From Luteimonas sp. (GTDB taxonomy: Bacteria > Pseudomonadota > Gammaproteobacteria > Xanthomonadales > Xanthomonadaceae): a DNA stretch of 64,000 nt. The notes under the pieces are model-generated. The model saw only the letters and a list, made by a program, of their open reading frames with translations. It did no database searches and was not told the origin of the DNA. The stretch spans positions 1,069-65,068 of the forward strand of contig DAOMPM010000006.1 of NCBI GenBank assembly GCA_035444805.1, written 5' to 3'. Shown piece by piece: positions 7,286-38,751 of the stretch; the stretch's first letter is position 1; each line of letters opens with the position of its first letter. The position numbers and the translations under genes were made by a program.

Positions 7286-9349
7286 TCAAGGCTGGCGCAT
7301 CTCCAGGCCCAGCGCCTCGGCGATCGCCTTCCACGACACGATCTTGTAGTTCTGGTTCTCGGCGGGGAGCACGTTGCGCCCGTCCTGCGCGACCATCGCG
7401 CCGTACTCCAGCCCGGGCCCGAGGTTCGCGCTGCTGACGTCCAGGCCATCGGTCTCGGAAATGCCGTCGATGCCGCGCGCCGGATCGGCGACCACGGCGA
7501 ACGAACCCAGATACTCCTGCTCCGCCTCGCGCCGGTACACCGCATAGGTGTCGTTGCCCTGGCTGGACACGATGATGTAGCCGCGGCCTTCGCCGAGGTC
7601 GTACAGACCTACGCCTTCGAAGTCGTCCTTCACCGCGGGGTTGTCCGCGATACGCTCGACGACGGTCTTGTCGTCGCCGCCGTCGGGCTCGGCGGACAGT
7701 TTCCACAGCGCGACGTCCTCCTCGCCGACGTAGAGGATGCCGGTCTCGTCGTCGGCCACGCAGCCCTCGGTCTGGGAGTCGAACTCCAGTTCGCGCACCA
7801 GCTCGGTCCGCACCCGCCCGTTGCCGGCGTCGAGTAGCCGCCACTGCCGCTTCACCGTGTCGTCGCCGTTGATGAAAACGTAGAAGTCGCCGTTGCGCTG
7901 GCTGCGGTACATGCACAGGCCGTACGGGTCGTGCATGCCGGTCGGCTGCACGCCGTCGGCGATTTCCACCAGCTCGCCCTTGCCGGTGTCGAGCCGGTAG
8001 ATGGCGATGGACTTGCGCGTGCGGTCGCTCGCGGTGACCAGCACCACCTTCTCGCCGCCAAGGTCGAAGCCGTCGCGCAGGTCGACGTTGTTCATCTTGC
8101 CGTCGGCCACGTAGTGCTTCACCCGCCCCTGCATGTCGTGCACGTACAGCCCGGACTTCTTGTCGGTCGCCACGATCAGGCTCATCCCCGGTTGCATCGG
8201 ATTGGCCCAGATCGCCGGGTCGTCCGCGGCGTCGCCGTAGCTGGCGACGGGAACCGTTTCCGCCACCGCGACCACGCCGGAACCGGGGCCTGGGGCAGTG
8301 GTCCGCGGGTCCCGCGGCGCGCCCGCGGTGAAGCCGAGCGCCTCGGCGATGGTGCCGATCGACAGCAGCTTGACGTCCGGTCCATCCTCGTCGGTCACCA
8401 GTAGCGCGCCGTCCGGCATGTCCGGGCCGAGTCCGGGCCCTGCGGCGAACATCGGCCCCGGTTCGTCGACGGTGGCGTCATCGCCGGCGGCGATGCGGAA
8501 GCTGCCGATATAGGCCGCGTCGTCCGCGAGGTCGTAGACGTTGACGCTGCCGGCCGAGGCGTTGGACGCGAACAGCCAGCGACCGCCCTCGCCCTCGTGG
8601 ACCGCCAGCCCGCCGACTTCCTCTTCGATGTGTCCGCCGCGCGGCAGGTCGATCAGTGCGGCCGCGACGTCAGACTCCGGATCCGCGTTCAAGCGCCAGA
8701 TGCCGACCGTTTCCTCCGACGCGTAGACGTGGCCCGCGGCATGGTCCACCGCGCACTGCTTCAGCGGCGACGGCACCGAGATCCTGCGCACCTGCGTAGC
8801 CGCGAGCGTGCCATCGCCAGCATCATGGATCACGCGCTGCTCGATCTCGCCGCCGTCGCCGACCACGAACGCGTTGAGCACCCCACTGAGCGGATTGCGG
8901 GACAGGCACAGCCCCTCGCCGGCGAAGCCCAGCGGCACCGGCGGCGCGACCTCGACCAACGTGTCCGCGGCGAAGCGGAACAGACGCAGGCTGTGCGGCG
9001 TGGTGGTGTCGATCGCCGCCACCAGGGTGATGCGGTCGTCGCCGAGACCGATGCCGTAGGCGACGTCCACTGCGGCGACCTCGCCGGCGGCGACCGCCGC
9101 GACACGGCGACCATCGACGGTGTGCAGCTCCAGTCCGCCTCGCGCCGTCGCGGAAACGATCCGGTTCCCGTCCGGACCCTCGCCCAGCAGCAGCGCAGCG
9201 CCGAGGACCTCGCCCGACTCGGCCGCCGCGGTACGCGCCGCCGGCGCCAGCGTCGACAGCGGATCGCCGGCGCCCTGCTGGACCTGGGTGCACCCACCTA
9301 GGCACAGCATGACCGTGGCCAGGCCGCAGAGCGTCCGCATCGTTCCCAT
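7286..9349 (-). CDS. Tandem-domain beta-propeller (alkaline, Ca-dependent) phytase, lipoprotein
   Basis: C-terminal domain has ADDPAIW, NNVD, PYGLCMY, EGCVADD, GEED, EGVGLY, SSQGND, ETDG, QDG motifs; N-terminal half is a degenerate second propeller; LGGC lipobox. Confidence 0.9.
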   Translation of the reverse strand: MGTMRTLCGLATVMLCLGGCTQVQQGAGDPLSTLAPAARTAAAESGEVLGAALLLGEGPDGNRIVSATARGGLELHTVDGRRVAAVAAGEVAAVDVAYGIGLGDDRITLVAAIDTTTPHSLRLFRFAADTLVEVAPPVPLGFAGEGLCLSRNPLSGVLNAFVVGDGGEIEQRVIHDAGDGTLAATQVRRISVPSPLKQCAVDHAAGHVYASEETVGIWRLNADPESDVAAALIDLPRGGHIEEEVGGLAVHEGEGGRWLFASNASAGSVNVYDLADDAAYIGSFRIAAGDDATVDEPGPMFAAGPGLGPDMPDGALLVTDEDGPDVKLLSIGTIAEALGFTAGAPRDPRTTAPGPGSGVVAVAETVPVASYGDAADDPAIWANPMQPGMSLIVATDKKSGLYVHDMQGRVKHYVADGKMNNVDLRDGFDLGGEKVVLVTASDRTRKSIAIYRLDTGKGELVEIADGVQPTGMHDPYGLCMYRSQRNGDFYVFINGDDTVKRQWRLLDAGNGRVRTELVRELEFDSQTEGCVADDETGILYVGEEDVALWKLSAEPDGGDDKTVVERIADNPAVKDDFEGVGLYDLGEGRGYIIVSSQGNDTYAVYRREAEQEYLGSFAVVADPARGIDGISETDGLDVSSANLGPGLEYGAMVAQDGRNVLPAENQNYKIVSWKAIAEALGLEMRQP

Positions 9350-9468: not shown

Positions 9469-9514
9469 TGCAAGAAAAATTCTAATTTAGTTGCATTTTG
9501 GAATCTTTGTTCGT
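9469..9514. promoter_or_regulatory. Pair of candidate IolR operators in phytase/TBDR divergent promoter
   Basis: TGCAA-GAAAAA-TTCTA (9469-9484) and TGGAA-TCTTTG-TTCGT (9499-9514); same TGGAA-N6-TTCCA-like palindrome as at the iol promoters. Confidence 0.55.
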
Positions 9515-9588
9515 AATCTCGGTCCTGGCCGGACCGTCCGGCAATCGCCGGTGTGTGCATCGGAACAGTCCTCGGGAGGGACCGGATC

Positions 9589-12162
9589 ATGCGGAGATTG
9601 CGTCGTAACGCGCTTTTCAAGGCATTGGTGCTCTGCCAATGCGTGGCACTGCCTTCCATCGCGCTCGCACAGGACGCGGCACCCCAGTCGCCACCGGCGT
9701 CCGACCCCACCGAGTTCGACACGATCGTCGTCACCGGCCGCCGCGCCGCCGATCGCCTGGCGATCGACGACAAGCGCAACGCCGACAACCAGGTGGATGC
9801 GATCCGCGCCGACGACGTCGGCCACCTGCCCGACCAGAACGTGGCCGAAGCGGTGCGCCGCCTGCCCGGCGTCACCACGATCAACGACCAGGGCGAGGGC
9901 CGCTACCTCACCGTGCGCGGCGTCTCGCCGGACCTGCTCAACGTCACCCTCAACGGGCAGACCGCGGCCGCGCCGGAACCGGACGGCCGACAGGTCAAGC
10001 TCGACGACATCCCCTCGGCGCTGATCGGCGGCGTCACCGTCGCCAAGACGCTGACGCCGGACATGGACGCCAACGCGATCGCCGGCCAGGTCAACATCGA
10101 GACGGTGTCGGCGTTCGACCGCAACCGTACCTTCGGCTCGGTGCGCGCCGCCTACGGCCGCTACGACATCAACGGCGAGAACCCGTACGAGTTCGATGCG
10201 TCGATCGGCGGCGTGTTCGGCGCCAACCGGCAATTCGGCGCGGTGGTCGCAGTGAACCGCTCCGACCGCAAGATCGGCTCGCAGAACATGCAGAACCCCG
10301 GCGACTGGATCGAGGTCGACGGCGAATGGGTGCCCGAAGGCCTGACGGTGCGCCAGTACAACACCCACCGCCAGCGCACCGGCGCGGTCGCCAACTTCGA
10401 CTGGAAGCCGAACGACAATGCCTTGCTGTACCTGCGCTTCCTGTACTCGAAGTACCAGGACCAGGAGACCCGCGACGGGTTCGCGCTGGAGTTCGACGAC
10501 GACAGCATCTTCCCGACGTCGGCAACCGGCGGCACCTTCGAGGACGCCGAGGCGATCCGCGCGATCCGCACGCGCGAGGAGACCACCAGCTCCTTCACCG
10601 TCTCCGCCGGCGGCGAGTTCGACTTCGGCAGAAACAAGCTGACCGCCGAGGCCGCCTATGCCCGCGCCGACAAGCGCGACCCGAACCGCGACGAGTGGGG
10701 CTTCGTCGCGGAGGACATCACCGGCAGCTATGTGATCGGCCCGCGCGGCTACGACATCTCGTTCGACGACGATGCCGCGTTCGACCCGTCCAACTTCGAG
10801 CCGGATTTCTTCGAGCCCGAATCACGCCGCGCGATCGAGGATCTGTACCAGGCGCGGCTGGACTACGTAATCCCGTTCGGCGAGAACGGCTCCGAGTTCC
10901 AGTTTGGCGTCAAGTACATCAAGCGCGACAAGACCAACGACGAGAGCGGTCGCGCCTGGAAGTACGACGACGGCGACCTGATGATGTCGGACGTGACCAA
11001 CCGGTCGATCGCGACGCTGTTCGGCGGCCGCTACCGGCTGGGCCCGCTGGTGAGCGGCCCGCTGTCGGACGCGTACTTCGCCGCCAACCCGGGCGAATTC
11101 GAGGAGGATGAGGAAGGCACGATCAGCGCTTCGCTGGCCGCCGACTACGCGATCACCGAGGAGATCACCGCAGCCTACGCAATGGCGCGGCTGTGGTTCG
11201 GCAACGTGACTGTGATCCCCGGCGTGCGCATGGAACACACCAAGGGCAGCTACGCCGCGCATGGCTTCGACCTGGAGGACGCCAGCCTCGATCAACCGTT
11301 CAACGTGTTCGGATCGCGCAGCTACACCGATTTCTTCCCGGGTATCAACGTCCGCTGGGACGCCGGCGAGCACTTCGTCGTGCGCGGCGCCATCACCCGT
11401 GCCATCGGCCGGCCGGCCTACGAGTCGCTGGCGCCATTCGTGGAGATCGAAGGCGTCAACAGCATCGAGCCCGAGGTCACGATGGGCAACCCGGACCTCG
11501 AGCCGCTGTACTCGACCAACTTCGACTTCTCGGTCGAGTACTACGTCGGCAACCGCGGCCTGCTCTCCGCCGCCGTGTTCTACAAGGACATCAAGAACCC
11601 GATCTACGAAGTCACCCGCACCGACCAGGACGGCGTGTTCGGCGGCATCAGCCTGACCGGTGCCGAGGTCAGCACCTGGACCAACGCCAGCAAGGCAACG
11701 GTGTCCGGCATCGAGCTCAACGCCCAGTACGAACTGAGCTTCCTGCCCTCGCCGTTCGACGGCTTCAGCGTCGGCGCCAACCTGACCTTCGTCGACTCGG
11801 AGGCCGAGGGCCTGCCGGAGCGCACCGACAAGGTGCCGCTGATGAGCCAGTCCGATCGCGTCGCGTCCGCACAGATCGCCTACGAGAAGTACGGGTTCTC
11901 CGCGCGGCTCGCCTACACCTACCGCTCGGCGATGCTCGACGAGGTGCACGAGGACGACCCGGACGGCGACATCTACTGGGATTCGCTGAAGCAGTGGGAC
12001 ATCAAGTTCGGCTACGAGATCAATCCGCGCTGGTCGGTATTCCTGGAGGGCTCCAACCTCAACGACGCGGCGATGCGCGCCTACGTCGGCCGCCGCGAGC
12101 GCACCATGGAGCGGGAGATCTACGGCTGGTCCGCGCGCATGGGGGTCCAGTTCAAGTTCTGA
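9589..12162 (+). CDS. TonB-dependent receptor (phytase-associated type)
   Basis: Signal peptide; TonB box DTIVVTG; plug motif NVAEAVRRLPG/DQGEGRYLTVRG; GNPDLEP; C-terminal VQFKF. Confidence 0.93.
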   Translation: MRRLRRNALFKALVLCQCVALPSIALAQDAAPQSPPASDPTEFDTIVVTGRRAADRLAIDDKRNADNQVDAIRADDVGHLPDQNVAEAVRRLPGVTTINDQGEGRYLTVRGVSPDLLNVTLNGQTAAAPEPDGRQVKLDDIPSALIGGVTVAKTLTPDMDANAIAGQVNIETVSAFDRNRTFGSVRAAYGRYDINGENPYEFDASIGGVFGANRQFGAVVAVNRSDRKIGSQNMQNPGDWIEVDGEWVPEGLTVRQYNTHRQRTGAVANFDWKPNDNALLYLRFLYSKYQDQETRDGFALEFDDDSIFPTSATGGTFEDAEAIRAIRTREETTSSFTVSAGGEFDFGRNKLTAEAAYARADKRDPNRDEWGFVAEDITGSYVIGPRGYDISFDDDAAFDPSNFEPDFFEPESRRAIEDLYQARLDYVIPFGENGSEFQFGVKYIKRDKTNDESGRAWKYDDGDLMMSDVTNRSIATLFGGRYRLGPLVSGPLSDAYFAANPGEFEEDEEGTISASLAADYAITEEITAAYAMARLWFGNVTVIPGVRMEHTKGSYAAHGFDLEDASLDQPFNVFGSRSYTDFFPGINVRWDAGEHFVVRGAITRAIGRPAYESLAPFVEIEGVNSIEPEVTMGNPDLEPLYSTNFDFSVEYYVGNRGLLSAAVFYKDIKNPIYEVTRTDQDGVFGGISLTGAEVSTWTNASKATVSGIELNAQYELSFLPSPFDGFSVGANLTFVDSEAEGLPERTDKVPLMSQSDRVASAQIAYEKYGFSARLAYTYRSAMLDEVHEDDPDGDIYWDSLKQWDIKFGYEINPRWSVFLEGSNLNDAAMRAYVGRRERTMEREIYGWSARMGVQFKF

Positions 12163-12521: not shown

Positions 12522-13826
12522 ATGCACCCAAGCCTCCGCATCCGCCCTCTCCTCCGCACCATCGCGACCGTCGCGCTCGCCGCCCTCGCCGCGTCCTGCG
12601 CGCACGCGCCCTCGCCGGACGCGGCCAGCGCGCCGGCCGGCGGCGATTCGCTGCAGCTGGATCGCGTGGTCCTGCTGATGCGCCACGGCGTGCGCCCGCC
12701 GACGCGGATGCCGCCGATCGCCGAGGGGCTGTCGCGCCAACCCTGGGCGGGATGGGACGCCGAGCCCGGGCACTTGACCGCGCACGGCTACGCCGGAACC
12801 GTGCTGGTCGGACGCTGGAGCCGCGGCGCGCTCGCCCATCGCGGACTGTTCGCCGCGGACGGCTGCCCGCCGCCGGGCAGCGTCGCGGTGCGCGCCAACA
12901 CCGACCAGCGCACGCGCGAAAGCGCGCGCGGGTTCCTGGAAGGGTTCGCGCCGGGCTGCGGCATCGCGGTCGCGCACAGCGACGGCCACCGCGACGACCC
13001 GATCTTCCAGTCGATCGACCTCGGGCTGGTGGAGTTCGACCGCGACCTCGCGCGCGCAGCGGTGATGGCGCGCGTCGACGGCGATCTCGGCAACGCCGTG
13101 CGCCCGCTGGCCGACGCATTCGCCCGGCTCGATGCCATCCTCGGATGCTGCGCCCCGCCTGCCTGCGCACAGGCCGGGTTGCCGCCGGACTGCACGCTGT
13201 CCACCTGGCCGACCGGCTGGGCGGACACCGCGCCCGGAAGGCGGGTGAAGTTCGGCGGCGCGCTGGACGCCGGCGGCATCGCCGCGCACACGCTGCTGCT
13301 GGAGTACGTGGAAGGCAAGCCGAGGGACCGGGTCGGCTGGGGTCGCGCCACGGAAGCGGACATCGCGCTGCTGTCGCGGATCCACGCGGTCGAGTTCGAC
13401 CTGCTCTACCGCACGCCCTACATCGCCCACCGCGGCGCCACGCCGATCCTGGAGCGGGTGCTGGCGACGTTCGGCGACGACGCAGCGCCGCGGCTGGACG
13501 TGCTGGTCGGCCATGACACCAACGCCTCCAACGTCGGCGGCGCGCTGGAGCTGCACTGGCACGTGCCCGGCTATGCGCCCGACGATGCCGCGGTCGGCGG
13601 CGCGATCGGTTTCGAGCTGCTGCGCGACGCCGCCGGCGACCGCTTCGTACGCGTGTCTTACCAGGCGCAGGGCGCGCGGCAACTGCGCGAACGGCAGCCG
13701 CTCGATGCCGCCAGCCCGCCCTATTTCGTACATATGGCGCAGCCGCTGTGCGCGCTGCCGTCCGACCCGACGCTGTGCCGCTACGAGGATTTTGCCGACG
13801 CGCTGCGGGCGCGGCTCGTGCGCTGA
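12522..13826 (+). CDS. Histidine acid phosphatase / acid phytase (AppA/Agp-like), probable lipoprotein
   Basis: RHGVRPP and GHDTN catalytic motifs, RT..SA motif, several Cys; LAASC lipobox-like signal; SD AGGAG. Confidence 0.9.
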   Translation: MHPSLRIRPLLRTIATVALAALAASCAHAPSPDAASAPAGGDSLQLDRVVLLMRHGVRPPTRMPPIAEGLSRQPWAGWDAEPGHLTAHGYAGTVLVGRWSRGALAHRGLFAADGCPPPGSVAVRANTDQRTRESARGFLEGFAPGCGIAVAHSDGHRDDPIFQSIDLGLVEFDRDLARAAVMARVDGDLGNAVRPLADAFARLDAILGCCAPPACAQAGLPPDCTLSTWPTGWADTAPGRRVKFGGALDAGGIAAHTLLLEYVEGKPRDRVGWGRATEADIALLSRIHAVEFDLLYRTPYIAHRGATPILERVLATFGDDAAPRLDVLVGHDTNASNVGGALELHWHVPGYAPDDAAVGGAIGFELLRDAAGDRFVRVSYQAQGARQLRERQPLDAASPPYFVHMAQPLCALPSDPTLCRYEDFADALRARLVR

Positions 13827-15844: not shown

Positions 15845-15884
15845 TAGAATATGATTTCCAAATTCAAATGCAATAGAATTTCCA
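15845..15884. promoter_or_regulatory. Pair of candidate IolR operators in iolG/iolR divergent promoter
   Basis: TAGAA-TATGAT-TTCCA (15845-15860) and TGCAA-TAGAAT-TTCCA (15869-15884) in an AT-rich patch. Confidence 0.65.
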
Positions 15885-18880: not shown

Positions 18881-18881
18881 C

Positions 18882-30960: not shown

Positions 30961-32303
30961 TCACGCGCTCGCTGCACTGGCGTCTGCTGGCGGGCGCCGC
31001 GGCGGCGATCCTGCTGGCGCTGTGCGTGGCCTGGGCGTTGATGACGCTGCTGTTCGAACGGCACCTCGAGCGCAGGCTCGAAAGCGAGCTCACCCGCGAC
31101 GGGCTGCGCCTGGTCGCCGCACTGGAGCTTGATGCCGGCGGCGCACCGCTGGTCGAGCCGGTGCCGATGGACCCGCGCCTGCAGACGCCCGCGGGCGGCT
31201 ACTACTGGCAGGTGTCGACGCCATCCGGCGCCGCACGCTCGCGTTCGCTGTGGGATGCCGACCTGCCCGCGCGCGATACCGCGCCGACCGACGACTGGAA
31301 GCTGCGGCACCAGGACGGTCCGTTCGGCGAACCCATCTCGCTGCTCGAGCGCGTGGTCGCGCCGGACGCCGGCGGACCCGACGTGCTGGTGCAGCTGGCG
31401 CAGGATCGTGCGCCGCTCACCGCCGCACGCGACGAATTCGGCCGCGAGCTGGCGCTGTTCCTGTTCGCGCTGTGGCTGGTGCTGTCGGCGGCTGCGTGGC
31501 TGCAGGTTCGCCTCGGCCTGCGCCCGCTGCGCCGCATCCGCGGCGACCTGGATCGGCTGCGCGACAGCGCACAGGCGCGGCTACCGGAAGCACACCTGCG
31601 CGAGATCCAGCCGCTCACCGAGGCGATCAACTCGCTCGCCGACGCGCGCGAAAACGACCTCGACCTCGCCCGGCGGCGCGCCGGCGACCTCGCGCACGGG
31701 CTGAAGACGCCGCTGTCGGCGATCGCCGCGCAAAGCCGCCGCGCGCGGGAAGACGGTGCCGCCCAGGCAGCCGACGGGCTGGATCGCGCCGTCGCGGCCA
31801 TGCGCCGCACGATCGATTCCGAACTGGCGCGAGCTCGGATCGCCGCAATCAGACGCGGCCCTGGCGGATCGAGCCAGGTGCGAACGACGGTGGAACGCCT
31901 GGTCAACGTGATCGAGCACACGGACCAGGGCGGGCAACTGGCGTTCAGTATCGACATCCCGGGCACGCTGGAGCTCGCCGTGCAACCGGACGACCTGTCC
32001 GAAATCATCGGCGCGGTGCTGGAGAACGCCTCCCGCCATGCCCGGCGACACGTGCGAATCAGCGGAGCCGCCGGTCCCGAATGGACCACGCTGAGCGTGG
32101 AGGACGATGGGCCGGGCATCAGCGACGACCGGCTTGTGCAAGTGATGGAGCGCGGCGGCAGAATGGACGAGAGCGGAACCGGGCTGGGGCTCGCGATCGC
32201 GCGCGACCTGACCGAGGCCACGGGGGGACGCATCCGCCTCTCGCGTTCCGGACTGGGCGGATTCGCCGTCGTCTTCATCTGGGGCCCGGCCTCGCCCGAA
32301 TGA
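30957..32303 (+). CDS. Sensor histidine kinase
   Basis: Two TM helices, HAMP, H-box DLAHGLKTPL, N-box LENA, DDGPG, GTGLGLAI. Confidence 0.93.
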   Translation: MITRSLHWRLLAGAAAAILLALCVAWALMTLLFERHLERRLESELTRDGLRLVAALELDAGGAPLVEPVPMDPRLQTPAGGYYWQVSTPSGAARSRSLWDADLPARDTAPTDDWKLRHQDGPFGEPISLLERVVAPDAGGPDVLVQLAQDRAPLTAARDEFGRELALFLFALWLVLSAAAWLQVRLGLRPLRRIRGDLDRLRDSAQARLPEAHLREIQPLTEAINSLADARENDLDLARRRAGDLAHGLKTPLSAIAAQSRRAREDGAAQAADGLDRAVAAMRRTIDSELARARIAAIRRGPGGSSQVRTTVERLVNVIEHTDQGGQLAFSIDIPGTLELAVQPDDLSEIIGAVLENASRHARRHVRISGAAGPEWTTLSVEDDGPGISDDRLVQVMERGGRMDESGTGLGLAIARDLTEATGGRIRLSRSGLGGFAVVFIWGPASPE

Positions 32304-32349: not shown

Positions 32350-32367
32350 CTGACATTTTCCTGACAG
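32350..32367 (+). promoter_or_regulatory. OmpR/Pho-type direct repeat CTGACA-N5-CTGACA
   Basis: CTGACATTTTCCTGACAG about 105 bp upstream of the metallophosphoesterase start. Confidence 0.5.
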
Positions 32368-32472: not shown

Positions 32473-33759
32473 GTGCAAGTTGCGTCCACCCTTCTGCTGT
32501 CCATGGCAAGCCTGGGCCTTGTCGCCGCATTGCCGCCCGCTGCCTCCGCGGCGGGGCCCGATGCCCGCGCTCCTTCATTCGTGGTCTTCGGCGACAGCGG
32601 CTACATCCCCTCCTACTACGAACTCGACGACGACGAACCGCCGATGCGCACGATCGGCGAGTACATGGCCATCGAAGTGGAAGAGTGGCTGGAGCGCAAC
32701 CCGTCGCTGGAAGGCTTCACGCCGACGCCGTGGACGTTCGAAACGGCAATGGGCAGCTACTTCCAGGCCAGCGGCATGTACCCGGTGGCCTGGGCCATGG
32801 ACGAGTACTGCAGGACCTGGAACTGCGACTTCGCGGTGATGCTGGGCGACAACATCTATCCCGACGGTGCCACCCTCGGCGCCGATGGCATTTCGGATGA
32901 ACGGCGCTTCAGGCAGATGCTCGATCAGCCGTTCGGCGCGTTCGGTGCCGGCACCCCCGGCTTCACCATCTACTCGATGCTGGGCAACCACGACTGGCGA
33001 ACCTCGCGCGAAGCCGTCTACGCACAGATGCGCTATCTCCAGCAGCATCCCAACTTCCACATGCCCGCCCTGTTCTATCGCGTCATTCCACCGGGGTTCG
33101 AGGGACAGGTGGAGATGTTCGTCATCGACACCGAAGTCCTGCTGGCCGGCACCACGGTGCGCAAGGACGAACTGGACGAGGAAGGCAACGAACTCGATAC
33201 CGGCAGGCTGGAGGAGTGGGATCCGCACATCAAGCCGGCCAACGCCGCCGAACGCAACATGGTTGCCTGGCTGGAAGGAGCGCTGCGCGACTCCACGGCG
33301 AAATGGAAGATCGTGTTGGGGCATCATCCGCTGTGGTCCGGTGCCGGCAGCAAGTACGAAAAGGCCCGCGCGCTGCGCGCCCTGTTCCTGCCGGTGCTGT
33401 GCCGCCACGCCGACGCCTACTTCGCCGGCGACGACCACACCATGGAGGTCTACACCGACGACTGCAGCGGGCCCGACGGCCTCGGCGAGGCCGCCGACCA
33501 GCCGCTACCGCTGCTGGTCAGTGGCGCGGCAGCGAAGTACCGCCCGCTGCACCCGAAGTTCATGGCCCAGCAGGTCGCCAACAATCCGCAGATTCGCAAC
33601 CTGTGGTCGAAGGGCCAAACCTGGGGCTTCATGCACGTCAGCATCGAGGACGACACCATGACGGTGCGCACGCTGACGACGCCCGGCGACTTCAGCGGAC
33701 GTCCCGTACTGGAGGTCGAGCACAGGTTCCCGCATCGCTCGCACGATCCAGGCCCCTGA
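32473..33759 (+). CDS. Secreted metallophosphoesterase, purple/tartrate-resistant acid phosphatase type
   Basis: GDSG, GDNIY, GNHD, GHHP, GDDH motifs; N-terminal signal peptide; GTG start with SD. Confidence 0.82.
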   Translation: MQVASTLLLSMASLGLVAALPPAASAAGPDARAPSFVVFGDSGYIPSYYELDDDEPPMRTIGEYMAIEVEEWLERNPSLEGFTPTPWTFETAMGSYFQASGMYPVAWAMDEYCRTWNCDFAVMLGDNIYPDGATLGADGISDERRFRQMLDQPFGAFGAGTPGFTIYSMLGNHDWRTSREAVYAQMRYLQQHPNFHMPALFYRVIPPGFEGQVEMFVIDTEVLLAGTTVRKDELDEEGNELDTGRLEEWDPHIKPANAAERNMVAWLEGALRDSTAKWKIVLGHHPLWSGAGSKYEKARALRALFLPVLCRHADAYFAGDDHTMEVYTDDCSGPDGLGEAADQPLPLLVSGAAAKYRPLHPKFMAQQVANNPQIRNLWSKGQTWGFMHVSIEDDTMTVRTLTTPGDFSGRPVLEVEHRFPHRSHDPGP

Positions 33760-33859: not shown

Positions 33860-34537
33860 TCAGTTGCCGCCGGGCACGCCCGGTTGCACCGCCCGCTGCC
33901 GATGGCCGTCGAGCGCCGCTCGAATCAGCGCCTTCGCTTCCGCTGCATCGCCGAAGCCGTTCAACACCACCGGGTTGCGGCCCTCCGGCAAGTCCTTGTA
34001 GACGCGGAAGAACGCCTCGATGCGATCGCGCTCGATCTCCGGCAGGTCGCCGATGTCGCGGATGCCGGCGTAAGTCGGATCAACCCTGTCGGCCGGCACG
34101 CCAATGATCTTCTCGTCGCGTTCGCCGCCATCGATCATGCGCAGCACGCCGATCGGGCGAAAACGGATCATCGTGCCCGGGTGCATCGGCTCGCGCGTGA
34201 GCACCAGGGCGTCAAGCGGGTCGTCGTCGCCGGCCAGGGTGCGCGGCAGCGAGCCGTAGTTGGCCGGGTACGTCATCGGCATCGACAGGAAGCGATCGAC
34301 ATGCACCAGGCCGTCCTCGCCGATCTCGTACTTGGTGAAGCTGCCCGCCGGGATTTCCACTGCGAGCAGCACTTCCTCCGGCGCAGCGTCCGGCTGTGCC
34401 GCGAGGAAGGGATGGCGGATCCCTTCACCGCGATCGGCCGCGACCGCCGGCAGCACCAGAAGCAGAGCCGGCAGCAGCGCCAACAGCACGGCCGATGCCG
34501 CGCGCGGACGCGCCGCCGGTACCGGCCTTGCCGCCAT
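33860..34537 (-). CDS. ppa: Family I inorganic pyrophosphatase with N-terminal signal peptide
   Basis: EIPAGSFTKYE, YPANYG, DDDPLD, DEKI, FFRVYK; preceded by a hydrophobic leader ending AVA-A. Confidence 0.85.
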   Translation of the reverse strand: MAARPVPAARPRAASAVLLALLPALLLVLPAVAADRGEGIRHPFLAAQPDAAPEEVLLAVEIPAGSFTKYEIGEDGLVHVDRFLSMPMTYPANYGSLPRTLAGDDDPLDALVLTREPMHPGTMIRFRPIGVLRMIDGGERDEKIIGVPADRVDPTYAGIRDIGDLPEIERDRIEAFFRVYKDLPEGRNPVVLNGFGDAAEAKALIRAALDGHRQRAVQPGVPGGN

Positions 34538-35703
34538 CAGCGCGTGCAGGCCGGCAGCGACAGCGCCGTGGCAATCCCGCGCCAGTCGAAGGCCACCGCG
34601 CCCTGGTCGTCGTGCACGGCATACAACACGCCATCGGGGAAGCGCGTGCTCGCGGCCTGGTCCAGCCAGATGCCATCGGTATTGGCAACGGTCGGTCCGG
34701 TCACCGCACCGGCGTGCGCCAGCGAGACGCGGTCGAACAGGTGGAACACCGTGCGGCCCTTGCCCTGCTCGGTGGTGATCCACCAGCCGCTGCCGTCGGC
34801 GCAGTCCTTGAGCATGATCCCTTCCGACTGCGCCTTCAGGAAATCGGCGCCGATGGTGCGCCCGCTGAACCTGCCCTCGAGGTCATAGACCTTGAGTTCG
34901 TTGGCGTACGCCTCGTCTTCCTCGGCGATCATCAGGCGGTTGTGCCCGGGATCGCCCCAGATCGACTCGACCACGCGCAGCGCACCCTCCGGCGAGGTGT
35001 CGCCGAAGGCACCGAGGTGACGCGTGGCGAAGCCTTCGCCCTCGCCCGCCATCGCGAAGCGGTGCACGCGACGGGTCAGCTCGGCCAGCGGCGGCAGGAT
35101 GTCCTCGCCCTGCGCGTCCTCGCCGGCCATGTATGCATCGGTGACGTAAAGCTCGTAGCCCGCGTCCACCTTGTGCGCCCACAGGCCGTAGGGCAGTTCG
35201 AGCACGTCGGCACCGAACATCGCCACCGCCTCCATCCCCGGCAGGCGCAGCACCTGCACCCGGCGGTTGTCGCGCTCGACCACGAACACCAGGTCATCGA
35301 CGATGGCGATGCCGTTGGGGCGGTCGAACTGGCCCGCGCCGGCGCCGCGCTCGCCGACGTGGCGCACGAACTCGCCGGTGTCGCCGTCATAGACCACCAA
35401 CCTGTGCGTGGACTTGGCGGTCGCCAGCAGCAGGATCCCGCCATCGGGCGCGGTCCAGCTGGCGACAGAGTCGATGTTGTCCTCGGGCGTCATCGGCGTG
35501 GCGAAGGCTTCGTCGACGGTCACCGCATCGCTGGTGCCTTCGCCGCGCGCTCCCTCGCGCACGAGGTCGGCGCGGTCTTCGGCGTCCGCGGCCGCTTCCA
35601 CTGTATCGGTATCGCCGGCGCCGCCGCAGGCGGCAAGCGCCAGCGCAAGTGCAGCGGCGGCCAGGACGCGCAAGTGTGCGGGTCGTGCGTGGTCGATGTT
35701 CAT
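34537..35703 (-). CDS. Divergent beta-propeller phytase-like lipoprotein
   Basis: LAAC lipobox; NIDS, RPNG, PYG, EED, SEG, EQG, NTDG, HDD motifs echo propeller phytases; TGATG overlap with ppa. Confidence 0.65.
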   Translation of the reverse strand: MNIDHARPAHLRVLAAAALALALAACGGAGDTDTVEAAADAEDRADLVREGARGEGTSDAVTVDEAFATPMTPEDNIDSVASWTAPDGGILLLATAKSTHRLVVYDGDTGEFVRHVGERGAGAGQFDRPNGIAIVDDLVFVVERDNRRVQVLRLPGMEAVAMFGADVLELPYGLWAHKVDAGYELYVTDAYMAGEDAQGEDILPPLAELTRRVHRFAMAGEGEGFATRHLGAFGDTSPEGALRVVESIWGDPGHNRLMIAEEDEAYANELKVYDLEGRFSGRTIGADFLKAQSEGIMLKDCADGSGWWITTEQGKGRTVFHLFDRVSLAHAGAVTGPTVANTDGIWLDQAASTRFPDGVLYAVHDDQGAVAFDWRGIATALSLPACTR

Positions 35704-35741: not shown

Positions 35742-35770
35742 CTGACATTTCGCTGTCATGACAATGACTC
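35742..35770. promoter_or_regulatory. Three 11-bp-phased Pho-box-like half sites
   Basis: + strand CTGACAT-TTCG-CTGTCAT; - strand reads GAGTCAT-TGTC-ATGACAG-CGAA-ATGTCAG. Confidence 0.5.
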
Positions 35771-35907: not shown

Positions 35908-38751
35908 ATGCCCTTCCAACGCTCACTGATCGCCGCCGCGATCGTCTCAGCGCTGTCCCTTTCGCTTGCCCAGAACGCCTCCGCCACCAGCGACCAGAGC
36001 ACCACGGTCACCGCCAGTGACAGTGCGGGCACCGTCCATGGCCAAGTCCGCGCCTCCAACGTGGGCGTCGCCCTCGACGGCGCGATCGTCACCTTGGGGA
36101 ACCGCCAGGTCGCCACCTCGGGCAACGGCAACTTCCGCCTGACCGGCGTCAGTCCCGGCCACCACCTGGTCCGCGTCGACTACCTCGGCTATGTGGCCCA
36201 GGAACTCGAGATCGAGGTCGTTGCCAACCGCGGCGCGCGCGTGGACGTGATCCTGGCCAGCACCGTCGGCGTCACCGATCTGGATACGCTCGATGTCCGC
36301 ACCGCCCGCGACGCCCAGGCCCTGGCCCTGAACCAGCAGCGCGCCTCCACCAACTACGTCAACGTGGTCTCGGCCGACCTGCTGGGCCAGTTCCCGGACA
36401 ACAATATCGCCGAGTCCACCCAGCGCATCCCCGGCGTATCGATCGAGCGCGACCAGGGCGAAGGCCGCTACGTGACCGTGCGCGGCGCGCCCAAGGAATT
36501 CACCACCGTCACCATGGACGGCGTGCAGCTGGCCAACCCGGACAACAGCAGCCGCGGCGTGGAGCTGGACACCATCCCGTCCGACGCGATCGCGGCGCTC
36601 GAGGTCACCAAGGCGCTGACTCCGGACATGGACGGTGACGCCATCGCCGGCAACATCAACATCCGCACGCAGAGCGCGCTGGACCGCGAGGGCCTGACCT
36701 TGCGCGCCTCGGCGGCCATGGGCGAGTTCGAGCTCGGCAGCGGCGCCAACGAGCGCTACAACGCCACCATCGGCAACCGCTTCGGGCCTGATGGCAACAT
36801 CGGCGTGATCATTTCCGCCTCGCGCAGCAAGCAGGAGCGCTTCACCGACAACGTCGAGGCGACGTTCGCCGACTTCGACGGCGAGATCATGCCCGAGGTG
36901 GTCGAGATCAAGGACTATGAGGGCACCCGCACCCGCACCGGGCTCACCGGCCGCTTCGACTTCCGGATCAATCCGGACCACCTCGTCTACTTCATCGCCT
37001 CCGATTCGAACTTCAAGGACCGCGAGTTCCGCGACACGCTTGCCATCGAGCTGGAGCGCCACGAAGCCGGATCGAACGACGTCAGCGGCGTCGCCGGCCG
37101 CGCCACCTTCGACAAGGAGCTGCGCGAGCGCACCTACGACAAGACGATCCGCACCTACAACCTGGGCGGCGAGCACTGGGTGGGCCAGGACTGGAAGCTC
37201 GACTGGCAGGTCGCGCAGAGCACCGCCGAGAAGACCACCAGCCCGCGCGACCAGTTCATCTTCCGCTCCACGGTGCGGCCGCGGATGGCCTACGACTACA
37301 GCAATCCCGACTTCCCGGTGTGGACGATCCTGGGCAGGGCCGACGCTCCGGCCACCGGCGTCAACCTGCCGGAGGACTGGTACGCATTCCGCCGCCTCAA
37401 CCAGCGTTACGAGTACAGCGAGGAAGAAGAGACCAGCTTCAGGCTCGACCTGGGCCGGGCGCAGACCTTCCTCGGCGAGAGCGGCGACATCAAGTTCGGC
37501 GTGCGCGCGCGCCTGCGCGACAAGATGTTCGACGACGAGCGCAGGCGCAACGGCAACGCGGGTGATTTCAACGCGCTGGGCGTCAGCTATGCCGACATGC
37601 TGCAGGACAGCTGGTCGAACAACTTCGACTACTTCCTGACCGGCCGCCGCTTCAGCCGCTACATCTTCGGCAACTACGCCGGTCCGCTGCAGCAGAGCAG
37701 CAACCACCAACTGCTGCTGGCCGATTCCACCACCGCCGACTACAGGGCCTCCGAAGACGTCTACGGCGCCTATTTCCGCATCGACGCGACCTGGGGCAAA
37801 CTGACCCTGGTCGGCGGCGCCCGCTACGAGCGCACCGAGCTGGACGGCAGTGCCGCCGAATTCAACGAGGAGACCGAAGAGTTCACCCAGCTGCACGCGA
37901 GCCGCAGCTACGGCCACTTCCTGCCGAGCGTGCACCTGCGCTACGAGATCGACCGGGACACCATCCTGCGCACCTCGTACTCCACCGGCATCAACCGCCC
38001 CGACTTCATGCACACCGCTCCCTACCGGATCATCGGCGAGAATCCGTGGGACGACATCACGGTGGGCAATCCGGACGTGGAAGCGGCCTATGCACACAAC
38101 TTCGACGTGTCGTTCGAGCGCTACCTGCGTCCGCTGGGCCTGCTCTCGGCCGCGGCCTTCTACAAGCGCATCAACGATCCGCTGTTCATTGCCAACAGCG
38201 TCGAGAGTTGGGAGGTGGTGGATCCCGACGACGGCTCGGTGGAAATCGTCAACCAGCGGATCACCCGTCCTGAGAATGGCGACAAGGGCAGCATCTATGG
38301 CCTTGAGCTGACCTGGCAGCAGACCTTCGACAAGCTGCCCGGCGCACTCAGCGGCCTGGGCATCTACGCCAACTACACCTGGGCCAAGTCCAAGGCGGAC
38401 CTGCCGTTCGGCCTGGGCGAAACCGAGCTGCCCGGCACCTCGCGCCACAACTACAACCTGGCGCTGACCTACGAGAAGGCCGGCTTCAACGCGCGCCTGG
38501 CGTACAACCGCCGCTCCGAATTCATCCAGGAGTTCAACATCACCAACCCGGAGCTCAACATCCTTTGGGATGGACGTTCGAGCCTGGACTTCACCACCAG
38601 CTACCGCTTCAGCAACGGCCTGGGCATCTTCGGCGAGGTCAACAACATCAACGACAGCCGCCAGGTCCGCTACCAGGGCGAACGCAACCGCGTGCTGGAA
38701 ATGGAGGGCTTCGGCCGCTCCTGGCTGGTCGGACTGCGCTACGACTACTGA
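35908..38751 (+). CDS. TonB-dependent receptor with N-terminal carboxypeptidase-regulatory-like extension (phytase-associated type)
   Basis: NIAESTQRIPG, DQGEGRYVTVRG, KALTPDMDGDAIAG, GNPD, C-terminal LRYDY. Confidence 0.92.
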   Translation: MPFQRSLIAAAIVSALSLSLAQNASATSDQSTTVTASDSAGTVHGQVRASNVGVALDGAIVTLGNRQVATSGNGNFRLTGVSPGHHLVRVDYLGYVAQELEIEVVANRGARVDVILASTVGVTDLDTLDVRTARDAQALALNQQRASTNYVNVVSADLLGQFPDNNIAESTQRIPGVSIERDQGEGRYVTVRGAPKEFTTVTMDGVQLANPDNSSRGVELDTIPSDAIAALEVTKALTPDMDGDAIAGNINIRTQSALDREGLTLRASAAMGEFELGSGANERYNATIGNRFGPDGNIGVIISASRSKQERFTDNVEATFADFDGEIMPEVVEIKDYEGTRTRTGLTGRFDFRINPDHLVYFIASDSNFKDREFRDTLAIELERHEAGSNDVSGVAGRATFDKELRERTYDKTIRTYNLGGEHWVGQDWKLDWQVAQSTAEKTTSPRDQFIFRSTVRPRMAYDYSNPDFPVWTILGRADAPATGVNLPEDWYAFRRLNQRYEYSEEEETSFRLDLGRAQTFLGESGDIKFGVRARLRDKMFDDERRRNGNAGDFNALGVSYADMLQDSWSNNFDYFLTGRRFSRYIFGNYAGPLQQSSNHQLLLADSTTADYRASEDVYGAYFRIDATWGKLTLVGGARYERTELDGSAAEFNEETEEFTQLHASRSYGHFLPSVHLRYEIDRDTILRTSYSTGINRPDFMHTAPYRIIGENPWDDITVGNPDVEAAYAHNFDVSFERYLRPLGLLSAAAFYKRINDPLFIANSVESWEVVDPDDGSVEIVNQRITRPENGDKGSIYGLELTWQQTFDKLPGALSGLGIYANYTWAKSKADLPFGLGETELPGTSRHNYNLALTYEKAGFNARLAYNRRSEFIQEFNITNPELNILWDGRSSLDFTTSYRFSNGLGIFGEVNNINDSRQVRYQGERNRVLEMEGFGRSWLVGLRYDY

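What the first reader, a model, noticed from the sequence alone, without database searches (positions are those of the whole stretch)
7286..38751. A ~31 kb phytate-to-carbon utilisation island: six phosphatase chemistries, three TBDRs and a full iol pathway
Seen: contiguous genes for a tandem beta-propeller phytase, TBDR-1, a histidine acid phytase, 2x iolG, iolR, iolCDEBA, an OPA-family carrier, IMPase, Tat-PhoD, TBDR-3, PepSY/RR/HK, a purple-acid-type phosphatase, a secreted PPase, a divergent propeller phytase and TBDR-2. The island sits between core genes (lat and upp). Established: propeller phytases typically stop near InsP3, histidine acid phytases go to InsP1, and iolGEDBCA converts myo-inositol to DHAP + acetyl-CoA. 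Inference: this is a PUL/CUT-like locus that fully mineralises InsP6, using both the phosphate and the inositol ring. I know phytase-TBDR pairs and iol operons separately, but not this complete combination.
Basis: partly seen in the sequence, partly recalled or inferred. Interest (0 to 1): 0.88.

Follow-up and report, generated by a model that had tools for sequence, protein, structure and literature searches.

The report
Phytate-to-inositol utilisation gene cluster
A Luteimonas bacterium carries a gene cluster, shared by several hundred soil and water bacterial species, that appears to take up plant phytate, remove its phosphates and burn the inositol ring, probably importing inositol phosphate through an exchanger that nobody seems to have described in this role.

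Summary
The organism is a Luteimonas, assembled from a metagenome.

Three points change the picture.

1. The 31 kb is composite. PPase, the phytase-like propeller and TBDR2 (33860-38751) sit between lat and upp in most Luteimonas I examined. Only the ~26.5 kb block at 7286-33759 is accessory. It occurs in 5 of 37 genus genomes and at different sites.

2. The block is not unique. The OPA-MFS orthologue is encoded in 445 species representatives, in Lysobacterales, Steroidobacterales, Caulobacterales and Sphingomonadales. It usually lies between iolA and IMPase. The tandem phytase lies within 16 kb in 23 of 28 named genomes.

3. Caulobacter crescentus CC1295-CC1305 is a reduced homologue that has been studied piecemeal: the iol genes, IolR, the phytase and the UrpRS two-component system.

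The functional link between phytase and catabolism is supported. The experimentally defined IolR operator (TGGAA-N6-TTCCA) lies in the phytase/TBDR1 promoter here. It also lies upstream of the OPA-MFS in 28 related loci.

I found no paper describing the transporter + IMPase entry route or the whole pathway. All biochemistry is inferred. Verdict: a new variant of a known kind, of moderate to high interest.

The parts
7286..9349 (-). Tandem (two-domain) beta-propeller phytase, a lipoprotein with lipobox LGGC
   Evidence: PF02333, 420 bits, 2 stretches. N-terminus. Orthologues lie 13-16 kb from the OPA-MFS in most of 28 named genomes.
9469..9514 (.). Two IolR-type operators (TGCAAGAAAAATTCTA at 9469-9484 and TGGAATCTTTGTTCGT at 9499-9514) in the divergent phytase/TBDR1 promoter
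   Evidence: The strict motif gives 3 hits in the window against 0.05 expected. The block is conserved in six Luteimonas islands. [quoted passage not shown]
9589..12162 (+). TBDR1, a TonB-dependent receptor of the Xanthomonas/Caulobacter type
   Evidence: TIGR01782, 615 bits against a cut-off of 310. Plug and barrel domains. Signal peptide.
12522..13826 (+). Histidine acid phosphatase (AppA-like), a lipoprotein
   Evidence: RHGVRPP and GHD motifs. PF00328. NF007552 E 7e-72, below the equivalog cut-off.
13843..15818 (-). Two tandem inositol 2-dehydrogenase genes: iolG_a 13843-14820 and iolG_b 14820-15818
   Evidence: TIGR04380, 408 and 382 bits against a cut-off of 355.
15845..15884 (.). Two IolR operators (TAGAATATGATTTCCA and TGCAATAGAATTTCCA) in the iolG/iolR divergent promoter
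15961..16857 (+). iolR, an RpiR-family repressor (HTH_6 + SIS)
   Evidence: 62-64% identical to the iolR at the C. crescentus locus and at a second Caulobacter locus.
16943..23942 (+). iolC (kinase/aldolase fusion), iolD, iolE, iolB, iolA
   Evidence: NF047869, 758 bits against 600. Pfam TPP enzyme, AP_endonuc_2, KduI/IolB and Aldedh. A weaker IolR site lies at 16884-16899.
24018..25373 (+). OPA-family MFS (GlpT/UhpC-like), the candidate inositol-phosphate:Pi antiporter
   Evidence: GlpT 1PW4, E 9e-46, with the equivalents of R45, K80, H165 and R269 conserved. It scores below all NCBIfam equivalog cut-offs. iolA lies directly upstream in 48 of 72 related loci and IMPase directly downstream in 58 of 78.
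25381..26202 (+). Cytoplasmic inositol monophosphatase family enzyme
   Evidence: PF00459, E 5e-60. No signal peptide; DPLDGT motif present.
26199..27641 (+). PhoD-like phosphatase with a twin-arginine signal (QRRTFL)
   Evidence: PF09423 and PF16655. N-terminus.
27812..29854 (-). TBDR3, a small divergent TonB-dependent receptor
   Evidence: Plug and barrel domains with weak scores. No NCBIfam match. Conserved beside the two-component system in most loci.
29922..29938 (-). Direct repeat CTGACA-N5-CTGACA in the TBDR3/PepSY promoter
   Evidence: Exact matches at the syntenic position (about 4.4 kb downstream of the MFS) in about 26 of the related loci, from many genera.
29963..32303 (+). Periplasmic PepSY protein, OmpR-family response regulator and histidine kinase; an orthologue of C. 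crescentus UrpRS
   Evidence: Pfam. RR 75% and HK 55% identical, and in the same position after iolA-PepSY, in the C. crescentus locus. That locus was identified by its published operator sequences.
32350..32366 (+). CTGACA-N5-CTGACA repeat upstream of the metallophosphoesterase gene
32473..33759 (+). Secreted purple-acid-phosphatase-like metallophosphoesterase
   Evidence: PF00149. The best solved relatives are mammalian purple acid phosphatases, E 5e-11.
33860..34537 (-). Family I inorganic pyrophosphatase with a signal peptide. Part of the resident module.
   Evidence: PF00719. NF002317, E 9e-49. Present at the lat-upp site in Luteimonas genomes that lack the iol block.
34537..35703 (-). 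Phytase-like/NHL six-bladed propeller lipoprotein. Part of the resident module.
   Evidence: Model pLDDT 85.9. The top PDB fold match is Bacillus phytase 1QLG, TM 0.63/0.69. 14 of 22 family members hit PF02333. Sources name the family 'phytase'.
35742..35758 (+). CTGACA-N5-CTGTCA repeat in the propeller/TBDR2 promoter
   Evidence: An exact match is absent from the ten lat-upp regions (eight with a propeller/TBDR module) that do not hold the inserted block.
35908..38751 (+). TBDR2, a TonB-dependent receptor with an N-terminal CarboxypepD_reg domain. Part of the resident module.
   Evidence: TIGR01782, 597 bits. Pfam.

Best explanation
The accessory block at 7286-33759 is a TonB-receptor-based utilisation locus for phytate and lower inositol phosphates. 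It yields both phosphate and carbon. It has been inserted next to a resident phosphorus-scavenging module (PPase, phytase-like propeller, TBDR2).

Proposed mechanism. Only sequence features are shown here; every biochemical step is inferred.
1. TBDR1 carries phytate or its metal complexes across the outer membrane.
2. Envelope enzymes remove most of the phosphates. These are the lipoproteins BPP phytase and histidine acid phosphatase, Tat-exported PhoD and the Sec-exported PAP-like enzyme.
3. The OPA-family MFS imports the remaining inositol monophosphate (or possibly bisphosphate) in exchange for cytoplasmic Pi.
4. The adjacent cytoplasmic IMPase releases myo-inositol plus the Pi that drives the next exchange.
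5. IolG, IolE, IolD, IolB, IolC/J and IolA convert inositol to DHAP, acetyl-CoA and CO2.

Control is two-tiered.
- The RpiR-type IolR represses the phytase/TBDR1 and iol promoters through TGGAA-N6-TTCCA operators. In relatives it also acts at the OPA-MFS promoter.
- The PepSY/RR/HK system is the orthologue of Caulobacter UrpRS, which activates the Caulobacter phytase promoter. Here it probably drives TBDR3, the PAP-like enzyme and the propeller/TBDR2 pair through CTGACA-N5-CTGWCA repeats.
For: Gene families and localisation signals.

IolR operators:
- The strict motif gives 3 hits in the window against 0.05 expected. All lie in the phytase/TBDR1 and iolG/iolR promoters.
- These blocks are conserved in six Luteimonas islands.
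- In 80 related loci (1.41 Mb) the motif occurs 59 times. 54 of these lie within 250 bp upstream of island genes.
- 28 loci carry it 50-130 bp upstream of the OPA-MFS and 11 carry it upstream of the phytase.
- The motif and the repressor were validated experimentally in C. crescentus (PMC2597717).

Synteny:
- The MFS orthologue is encoded in 445 species representatives.
- iolA lies directly upstream in 48 of 72 loci and IMPase directly downstream in 58 of 78.
- The tandem phytase lies within 16 kb on the same contig in 23 of 28 named genomes from two classes.

Transporter:
- The GlpT substrate-site residues are conserved.
- G000, G035 and the complete Arenimonas daejeonensis chromosome have no strong IbpA-type binding protein and no full-length sugar porter.

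Two-component system:
- The RR is 75% and the HK 55% identical to those of the C. crescentus locus, in the same position. That locus was identified by exact matches to both published operators.
- UrpRS regulates the phytase gene there (PMC8963506).
- CTGACA repeats occur 6 times in the two island copies of this assembly. Genome-wide there are 8 hits against 0.6 expected. The repeat is conserved at the TBDR3/PepSY promoter across genera.
Against: - No expression, growth or enzyme data exist for this organism.
- The substrates of TBDR1-3, the OPA-MFS, PhoD, the PAP-like enzyme and the IMPase are inferred from context only.
- The histidine acid phosphatase and the MFS score below their NCBIfam equivalog cut-offs.
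- In the window itself the site upstream of the MFS is degenerate (24012-24027, two mismatches).
- IMPases generally act poorly on Ins(2)P, the usual end product of AppA-type phytases. The species that is imported is therefore uncertain (my own knowledge).
- The CTGACA repeat resembles the Pho box (CTGTCAT-N4-CTGTCA). It could be bound by PhoB instead of the local regulator.
- G000 is only 91.5% complete, so absence of an inositol transporter there is weak evidence.
- C. crescentus grows on inositol through an ABC transporter and has no OPA-MFS, so the phytase-iol link does not require it.
Confidence: 0.68

Rival explanations
1. These are two unrelated functions that happen to be neighbours. 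One is a phosphate-starvation scavenging set (phytases, PhoD, PAP-like enzyme, PPase, TBDRs). The other is an ordinary free-inositol catabolic operon. On this reading the OPA-MFS carries glycerol-3-phosphate or a sugar phosphate, and the IMPase is a housekeeping SuhB/HisN-type enzyme.
For: - The PPase-propeller-TBDR2 module occurs without iol genes in most Luteimonas I examined.
- The CTGACA repeats look like Pho boxes. A canonical CTGTCAT-type box precedes an OprP-like porin elsewhere in the genome.
- The MFS is nearest to UhpC/PgtP/GlpT, and the IMPase scores equally well against HisN.
- C. crescentus imports inositol through an ABC system (PMC2597717).
Against: - IolR operators lie in the phytase/TBDR1 promoter here. 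They also lie upstream of the MFS or the phytase in dozens of loci from different orders.
- The order iolA-MFS-IMPase is conserved.
- Three island-bearing genomes show no canonical inositol transporter.
- The local RR is not PhoB (TIGR02154, 135 bits against a cut-off of 296).
Confidence: 0.14
2. The locus is real and integrated, but its natural substrate is not InsP6. It could instead be lower or other inositol phosphates. Examples are soil scyllo- or D-chiro-inositol phosphates, Ins(1)P, or glycerophosphoinositol from phospholipid turnover. The phytases would then act only as trimming enzymes.
For: - Two divergent iolG paralogues could serve different inositol stereoisomers.
- The transporter and IMPase point to monophosphates as the species that enters the cell.
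- No receptor substrate has been shown.
Against: - The tandem beta-propeller phytase is a strong member of PF02333.
- The homologous C. crescentus phytase supports growth on phytate as the phosphorus source (PMC8963506).
- Phytase-TBDR pairs have been predicted to take up phytate (PMC3400609).
Confidence: 0.13
3. The cluster is mainly a metal-stress or biomineralisation system. The UrpRS-like sensor would detect uranium or other metals, and the phytase would release phosphate to precipitate them. Inositol catabolism would be a by-product.
For: UrpRS was discovered as a uranium-responsive regulator of the phytase in C. crescentus. PepSY proteins can bind uranium and iron (PMC8963506).
Against: - That review notes that induction by uranium is thought to be indirect.
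- The conserved partners (complete iol pathway, IolR operators, antiporter, IMPase) are nutritional genes.
Confidence: 0.04

Closest known systems
Caulobacter crescentus CC1295-CC1305 locus: phytase CCNA_01353, idhA, iolR, iolCDEBA, PepSY, UrpRS CCNA_01362/63
   Same: - Same order: tandem beta-propeller phytase, inositol dehydrogenase, RpiR IolR, iolC(J)DEBA, PepSY, RR, HK.
- Identities to the window: 47% (phytase), 64-81% (iol genes), 75% (RR) and 55% (HK).
- Same IolR operator family (TGGAA-N6-TTCCA).
- Inositol catabolism and IolR repression have been shown there (PMC2597717).
- The phytase is needed for normal growth on phytate as phosphorus source, and it is regulated by UrpRS (PMC8963506).
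   Different: - The Caulobacter locus lacks TBDR1, the histidine acid phosphatase, the second iolG, the OPA-MFS, IMPase, PhoD, TBDR3 and the PAP-like enzyme.
- It imports free inositol through the distant IbpA-IatAP ABC transporter.
- In the papers I could search, the phytase, the iol genes and UrpRS have been studied separately and not as one pathway.
TonB-dependent receptor / beta-propeller phytase gene pairs, and the CUT (carbohydrate utilisation with TBDR) loci of Xanthomonas and Caulobacter
   Same: - A TIGR01782-type receptor lies divergent from a secreted hydrolase, with an inner-membrane transporter and a local regulator.
- Phytate has been predicted as a TBDR substrate from such pairs (PMC3400609). 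Lim et al. 2007 and Blanvillain et al. 2007 are cited from my own knowledge.
   Different: - The published pairs are treated as phosphorus-acquisition units.
- Here the pair carries operators of the inositol catabolic repressor.
- It is also joined to a complete ring-degradation pathway and to an organophosphate antiporter.
GlpT and UhpT/UhpC organophosphate:phosphate antiporters (OPA family)
   Same: Same fold and family. The four GlpT substrate-site residues are conserved.
   Different: - The protein scores below every equivalog cut-off, for example UhpC 257 bits against 564 and GlpT 210 against 633.
- Its conserved neighbours are iolA and IMPase, not glp or uhp genes.
- The substrate is unknown. 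My searches found no characterised bacterial inositol-phosphate transporter of this family.
Classical iol clusters of Bacillus subtilis, Salmonella and Sinorhizobium (the IolCatGC of Weber & Fuchs 2022, PMC9430895)
   Same: The same enzyme set: IolG, E, D, B, C, J and A.
   Different: - Those clusters carry inositol permeases (IolT/IolF or ABC systems) and no phytase, TBDR, OPA antiporter or IMPase.
- That survey's text has no occurrence of 'TonB' or 'monophosphatase', and its two mentions of phytase are not about cluster content.

Membership tests
myo-inositol catabolic cluster (IolG-E-D-B-C/J-A) | All enzymes of the route from myo-inositol to DHAP + acetyl-CoA are present | tested here: met
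   Two iolG genes score above the TIGR04380 cut-off. The iolC-iolJ fusion scores above the NF047869 cut-off. iolD, iolE, iolB and iolA are assigned by Pfam and by conserved order.
RpiR-type IolR regulon | Palindromic TGGAA-N6-TTCCA operators upstream of the regulated genes | tested here: met
   3 strict hits against 0.05 expected, all in two island promoters. 54 of 59 hits in 80 related loci lie upstream of island genes. Binding itself was not tested.
Beta-propeller phytase (PF02333) | Significant match to the family model | tested here: met
   The protein at 7286-9349 scores 420 bits against a cut-off of 21, in two domains.
Beta-propeller phytase (PF02333) | Ca2+-dependent hydrolysis of phytate | not testable with these tools
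   An enzyme assay is needed.
Beta-propeller phytase: the second, divergent propeller at 34537-35703 | Family-model match and phytase fold | tested here: inconclusive
   Its own score is 18.5-18.9 bits, below the cut-off of 21. 14 of 22 relatives match at E<=0.01. The best fold match is Bacillus phytase 1QLG, but NHL domains score nearly as well. Catalytic residues were not checked.
AppA-family histidine acid phytase | RHGxRxP and HD catalytic motifs | tested here: met
   RHGVRPP and GHD are present.
AppA-family histidine acid phytase | Score above the NCBIfam equivalog cut-off | tested here: not met
   NF007552 scores 242 bits against a cut-off of 585. The protein is a branch-2 histidine phosphatase, but an AppA equivalog is not shown.
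OPA family antiporter (GlpT/UhpT) | MFS fold with the paired arginines, lysine and histidine of the GlpT substrate site | tested here: met
   In the alignment to 1PW4, the equivalents of R45, K80, H165 and R269 are conserved.
OPA family antiporter (GlpT/UhpT) | Membership of a characterised substrate subfamily (GlpT, UhpT, UhpC, PgtP) | tested here: not met
   All scores are below the curated cut-offs.
UrpRS two-component system | Orthology to CCNA_01362/63, next to the phytase-iol genes | tested here: met
   RR 75% and HK 55% identity with the same PepSY-RR-HK position after iolA. The Caulobacter locus (L109) was identified by both published operator 16-mers. The signal it senses was not tested.
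Pho regulon | Pho boxes (CTGTCAT-N4-CTGTCAT) upstream of the genes | tested here: inconclusive
   The island repeats are of the CTGACA type. A canonical CTGTCAT box precedes an OprP-like porin on contig C97. Which regulator binds the island repeats is unknown.
Mobile genomic island | Patchy distribution and variable insertion site | tested here: met
   Present in 5 of 37 genus genomes. It lies at the lat-upp site only in G000 and G009 and elsewhere in G008, G027 and G035.
Mobile genomic island | Integrase or transposase, tRNA target, flanking direct repeats, atypical composition | tested here: not met
   None of the called genes is a recombinase. The nearest tRNA is at 53554. The block's GC is 0.691 against a genome value of 0.695. 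Flanking direct repeats were not searched for specifically.

The most novel reading that the evidence does not exclude
The OPA-family MFS and the IMPase next to it form an undescribed entry route into inositol catabolism. Inositol monophosphate, the product that most phytases leave behind, would be taken up by antiport against Pi. It would then be dephosphorylated in the cytoplasm, and the released Pi would drive the next exchange. In at least 445 species, phytate would then serve as a carbon source through a TBDR-phytase-antiporter-IMPase-iol regulon under IolR control. In genomes such as this one, this route would replace dedicated inositol permeases.
Probability: 0.5. Interest if true: 0.72.

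Novelty: new variant of a known kind. Interest (0 to 1): 0.6.

Why it matters
Phytate is the largest pool of organic phosphorus in many soils and manures. It is usually discussed only as a phosphorus source that extracellular phytases release. Recent work treats phytase producers and inositol consumers as separate, cross-feeding organisms (PMC12838507).

A conserved regulon that joins receptor, phytases, antiporter, IMPase and ring catabolism would change that view for several abundant groups. Xanthomonad-related bacteria, caulobacters and sphingomonads would be using phytate as food, privately and inside the envelope. The model predicts a first bacterial inositol-phosphate transporter. It also offers a physiological role for the Caulobacter 'uranium' sensor UrpRS.

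Cultured strains that carry the locus are available, so all of this can be tested directly.

Tried and rejected
- A near-perfect-palindrome search and a shared-12-mer search of the intergenic regions found only REP/MITE-like repeats, not the regulator sites. The operators emerged only after aligning orthologous promoters and taking the published Caulobacter motif.
- I first read the CTGACA repeats as Pho boxes. A genome-wide count shows the CTGACA form only in the island copies, while a CTGTCAT form precedes a phosphate porin. PhoB binding still cannot be excluded.
- I suspected in-frame TGA codons in phytase orthologues because one search flagged '1 TGA'. The one case I could read (Brevundimonas, L101) is an uninterrupted ORF, so the flags look like artefacts of alignment ends. 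My script failed on the other three loci.
- G107 looked like C. crescentus by size, but it has no iolC. Its PepSY-RR-HK system is a paralogous one away from any iol genes.
- Rfam found no riboswitch or sRNA in the island.
- The second island copy on contig C40 is probably not a paralogue. See the items noticed in passing.
- Eight literature searches found no description of the full pathway or of an inositol-phosphate OPA transporter. One of them was wasted on ambiguous acronyms. The library lacks most subscription journals, so absence of a paper is not proof.
Full report
**What is there**

The window has about 70% G+C, so I called genes by third-position GC. I named them with Pfam and NCBIfam.

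| Gene | Coordinates (strand) | Evidence |
|---|---|---|
| Two-domain beta-propeller phytase | 7286-9349 (-) | PF02333, 420 bits |
| TBDR1 | 9589-12162 (+) | TIGR01782 'Xanth-Caul' receptor |
| Histidine acid phosphatase | 12522-13826 (+) | RHGVRPP and HD motifs |
| Two inositol 2-dehydrogenases | 13843-15818 (-) | Both above the TIGR04380 cut-off |
| RpiR-type iolR | 15961-16857 (+) | HTH_6 + SIS |
| iolC (kinase/aldolase fusion), iolD, iolE, iolB, iolA | 16943-23942 (+) | NF047869, 758 bits for iolC |
| OPA-family MFS | 24018-25373 (+) | GlpT/UhpC-like |
| IMPase | 25381-26202 (+) | PF00459 |
| PhoD | 26199-27641 (+) | PF09423 |
| TBDR3 | 27812-29854 (-) | Weak plug and barrel matches |
| PepSY, response regulator, histidine kinase | 29963-32303 (+) | Pfam |
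| PAP-like metallophosphoesterase | 32473-33759 (+) | Solved relatives are purple acid phosphatases |
| Family I pyrophosphatase | 33860-34537 (-) | PF00719 |
| Propeller lipoprotein | 34537-35703 (-) | Phytase-like/NHL |
| TBDR2 | 35908-38751 (+) | TIGR01782 |

The N-termini fit the proposed topology:
- Lipoboxes on both propellers and on the acid phosphatase.
- A twin-arginine signal on PhoD.
- Sec signals on the PAP-like enzyme, the PPase, PepSY and the three receptors.
- No signal on the IMPase.

The six phosphatase families and the three receptors are therefore real.

**The second propeller**

By itself this protein falls just under Pfam's Phytase threshold. Its family is nevertheless phytase-like:
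- 14 of 22 relatives match PF02333.
- Public annotation names the family 'phytase'.
- An AlphaFold model (pLDDT 85.9) has Bacillus phytase 1QLG as its best match in the PDB (TM 0.63/0.69). NHL-repeat propellers score close behind.

**Whose genome, and is it an island?**

Names on homologues place the window in Luteimonas. The assembly has 155 contigs and is 91.5% complete, so it is probably assembled from a metagenome.

The OPA-MFS orthologue is present in only 5 of 37 genomes of the genus. The four other carriers hold the same block: phytase-TBDR1-(HAP)-iolGG-iolR-iolCDEBA-MFS-IMPase-PhoD-(TBDR3)-PepSY-RR-HK.

Mapping lat and upp in 38 Luteimonas genomes gave this picture:
- In the genomes where both genes map to one contig region, they are adjacent or 4-8 kb apart.
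- In eight of the ten lat-upp regions I fetched, the gap holds a propeller with a TBDR (TBDR2-like, or divergent). Six of these, and a ninth region that has no propeller, also carry the PPase.
- Only this genome and L. saliphila (G009) have the roughly 26 kb block inserted between lat and the PPase.
- In G008, G027 and G035 the block lies elsewhere.

It consists of a resident module (33860-38751) and an accessory block (7286-33759).

The block has the genome's own base composition (0.691 against 0.695). It carries no recombinase gene.

**How widespread**

A pattern scan of one genome per species found 445 loci that encode the MFS orthologue. The best 80 are 67-86% identical. They come from:
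- Lysobacterales: Luteimonas, Pseudoxanthomonas, Arenimonas, Rhodanobacter.
- Steroidobacteraceae and Povalibacter.
- Alphaproteobacteria: Brevundimonas, Caulobacter, Phenylobacterium, Sphingomonas, Hephaestia and Hyphomonas.

In these 80 loci:
- iolA lies directly upstream of the MFS in 48 of 72.
- IMPase lies directly downstream in 58 of 78.
- 71 contain iol genes.
- 78 contain a phosphatase.
- The two-component system is present in 40 of 59.

In 23 of 28 named genomes the tandem phytase lies within 16 kb of the MFS on the same contig. In Povalibacter, Sphingomonas, Hephaestia and Pseudokordiimonas the two are within 3 kb.

Brevundimonas genes are about as similar to the Luteimonas genes as the Arenimonas genes are. 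This points to transfer of the whole cluster between classes.

**Is the phytase really coupled to catabolism?**

This was the crux, and operator sites answer it.

Boutte et al. (PMC2597717) showed that C. crescentus IolR acts through the palindrome TGGAA-N6-TTCCA. A strict version, T[AG]GAA-N6-TT[CG]CA, occurs three times in the 64 kb window against 0.05 expected:
- Once in the divergent phytase/TBDR1 promoter (9469-9484). A second, weaker site lies at 9499-9514.
- Twice in the iolG/iolR promoter.

Both promoter blocks are conserved in all six Luteimonas copies.

In the 80 related loci (1.41 Mb) the strict motif occurs 59 times. 54 of these are within 250 bp upstream of island genes. Perfect operators lie 50-130 bp upstream of the OPA-MFS in 28 loci from Lysobacterales, Steroidobacteraceae, Caulobacter, Niveispirillum and others. 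Operators lie upstream of the phytase in 11 loci. Sphingomonad loci carry the same TGCAAG-N4-ATTCYA variant in their phytase/TBDR1 promoter as this window does.

Sequence alone cannot give stronger evidence than this that phytase, receptor, antiporter and the iol genes form one regulon.

**The entry step**

The MFS aligns with GlpT (1PW4, E 9e-46). The equivalents of the four substrate-site residues R45, K80, H165 and R269 are conserved. The protein is below the cut-off of every characterised subfamily.

Three carriers have neither a strong IbpA-type periplasmic binding protein nor a full-length sugar porter. These are this genome, Luteimonas sp. MJ293 and the complete Arenimonas daejeonensis chromosome. 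C. crescentus, L. saliphila and L. wenzhouensis do have them.

I therefore infer the following. The substrate enters as an inositol phosphate in exchange for Pi and is dephosphorylated by the adjacent cytoplasmic IMPase. The released Pi then drives the next exchange. Which isomer is carried is unknown.

**The second control tier**

Locus L109 contains both 16-mers that Boutte et al. mutated in the C. crescentus iolC promoter. It therefore represents C. crescentus or a very close relative. Its order is:

tandem phytase - idhA - iolR - iolCDEBA - PepSY - RR - HK.

The RR is 75% identical to the island's RR and the HK is 55% identical. By locus-tag arithmetic and a review (PMC8963506), this pair is UrpRS, the 'uranium-responsive phytase regulator'. 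The Luteimonas system is therefore its orthologue.

A direct repeat, CTGACA-N5-CTG[AT]CA, occurs exactly three times in the window: upstream of TBDR3/PepSY, of the PAP-like gene and of TBDR2. Further points about this repeat:
- Genome-wide there are 8 hits against 0.6 expected. Six of them lie in the two island copies.
- The TBDR3/PepSY copy has exact matches at the syntenic position in about 26 related loci from many genera.
- An exact match is missing from all ten lat-upp regions that do not hold the inserted block. Eight of these have a propeller/TBDR module.

The last point suggests that the resident module was wired into the island's regulon after insertion. The repeat does resemble a Pho box, and a canonical CTGTCAT box precedes an OprP-like porin on contig C97. 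PhoB therefore remains a rival binder.

**Literature**

Published work covers:
- Phytase-TBDR pairs (PMC3400609).
- iol clusters (PMC9430895).
- The Caulobacter iol module and IolR (PMC2597717).
- The Caulobacter phytase and UrpRS (PMC8963506).
- Phytate enrichment of Caulobacter and Sphingomonas (PMC5017799).

Eight full-text searches found no description of the joined pathway or of an inositol-phosphate OPA transporter. A 2026 study still frames phytate-to-inositol use as cross-feeding between different organisms (PMC12838507). The library lacks most subscription journals.

Earlier notes from this scan report analogous TBDR-phytase-OPA-inositol loci in Marinimicrobia and Acidobacteriota. Those notes are unverified leads, and I did not test them. 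They fit a general strategy that has not yet been written up.

**Verdict**

The functional coupling holds and is strengthened.
- The '31 kb island' is a resident module plus an inserted block.
- The combination is common, and a reduced version is partly characterised in Caulobacter.
- All biochemistry remains inferred.
- I rate it a new variant of a known kind, with interest 0.6.

Noticed in passing
G000 contig C40 (27.5 kb; L003/L004): A second copy of the island sits on its own contig. Its proteins are about 84% identical to those of the window. The contig is 94.6% identical in DNA to the island of another Luteimonas MAG (G027). It has the lowest GC of the assembly's 100 contigs of 10 kb or more (0.645 against a mean of 0.695, sd 0.014), which matches the GC of G027. 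It is most likely a mis-binned contig from a co-occurring species and not a paralogue. In this version, two true purple acid phosphatases (with the Pur_ac_phosph_N domain) and the PPase flank the CTGACA repeats.
   Followed up: partly
window 12224-12443, 27675-27785, 38805-38888: Long nested inverted repeats fill three intergenic gaps in and beside the island. Blastn of the three segments gave 106, 53 and 52 hits in the genome. The ~130 bp core of the first has about 15 further copies of 100 bp or more, at 72-91% identity. They are REP/MITE-like elements, not regulatory sites specific to the island.
   Followed up: partly
window 6709-7200 (+): There is a 163-aa hydrophobic ORF with lower GC3 in the 776 bp gap between lat and the phytase. 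In L. saliphila the same junction is only about 55 bp. REP-like GTAGGAGCGG repeats lie next to it. Whether it is a gene is unknown.
   Followed up: no
G063 (Luteimonas wenzhouensis) C14:500796-501533: A Peripla_BP_4 sugar-binding protein gene (E 2e-39) lies about 400 bp from the tandem phytase gene. Some island versions may therefore also carry an inositol ABC importer.
   Followed up: no
G066 (Arenimonas daejeonensis) C1:256667-258519: The tandem phytase orthologue matches as two pieces in different frames (query residues 70-437 and 430-686). This suggests a frameshift or a split gene in that complete genome.
   Followed up: no
G000 contig C97:10852 (-) and ORF 9435-10799 (-): A canonical Pho box (CTGTCATCTTCCTGTCA) lies about 50 bp upstream of a gene that I judged, from its translation alone, to be an OprO/OprP-like phosphate porin. 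It is a useful yardstick for the real Pho box of this organism.
   Followed up: partly
window 14818-14822 and 34535-34539: There are two start/stop overlaps. The iolG_a start overlaps the iolG_b stop, and the PPase start overlaps the propeller gene's stop. Both suggest translational coupling. I did not examine the near-identical tract between the two iolG genes that another first-stage note reported.
   Followed up: no
G107:C1:1295900-1298200, with similar loci in G104 and G125: Some Caulobacter-genus genomes that lack iolC carry a paralogous PepSY-RR-HK system (RR about 63% identical) away from any phytase or iol genes. The PepSY two-component family is therefore broader than the phytate locus.
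   Followed up: partly
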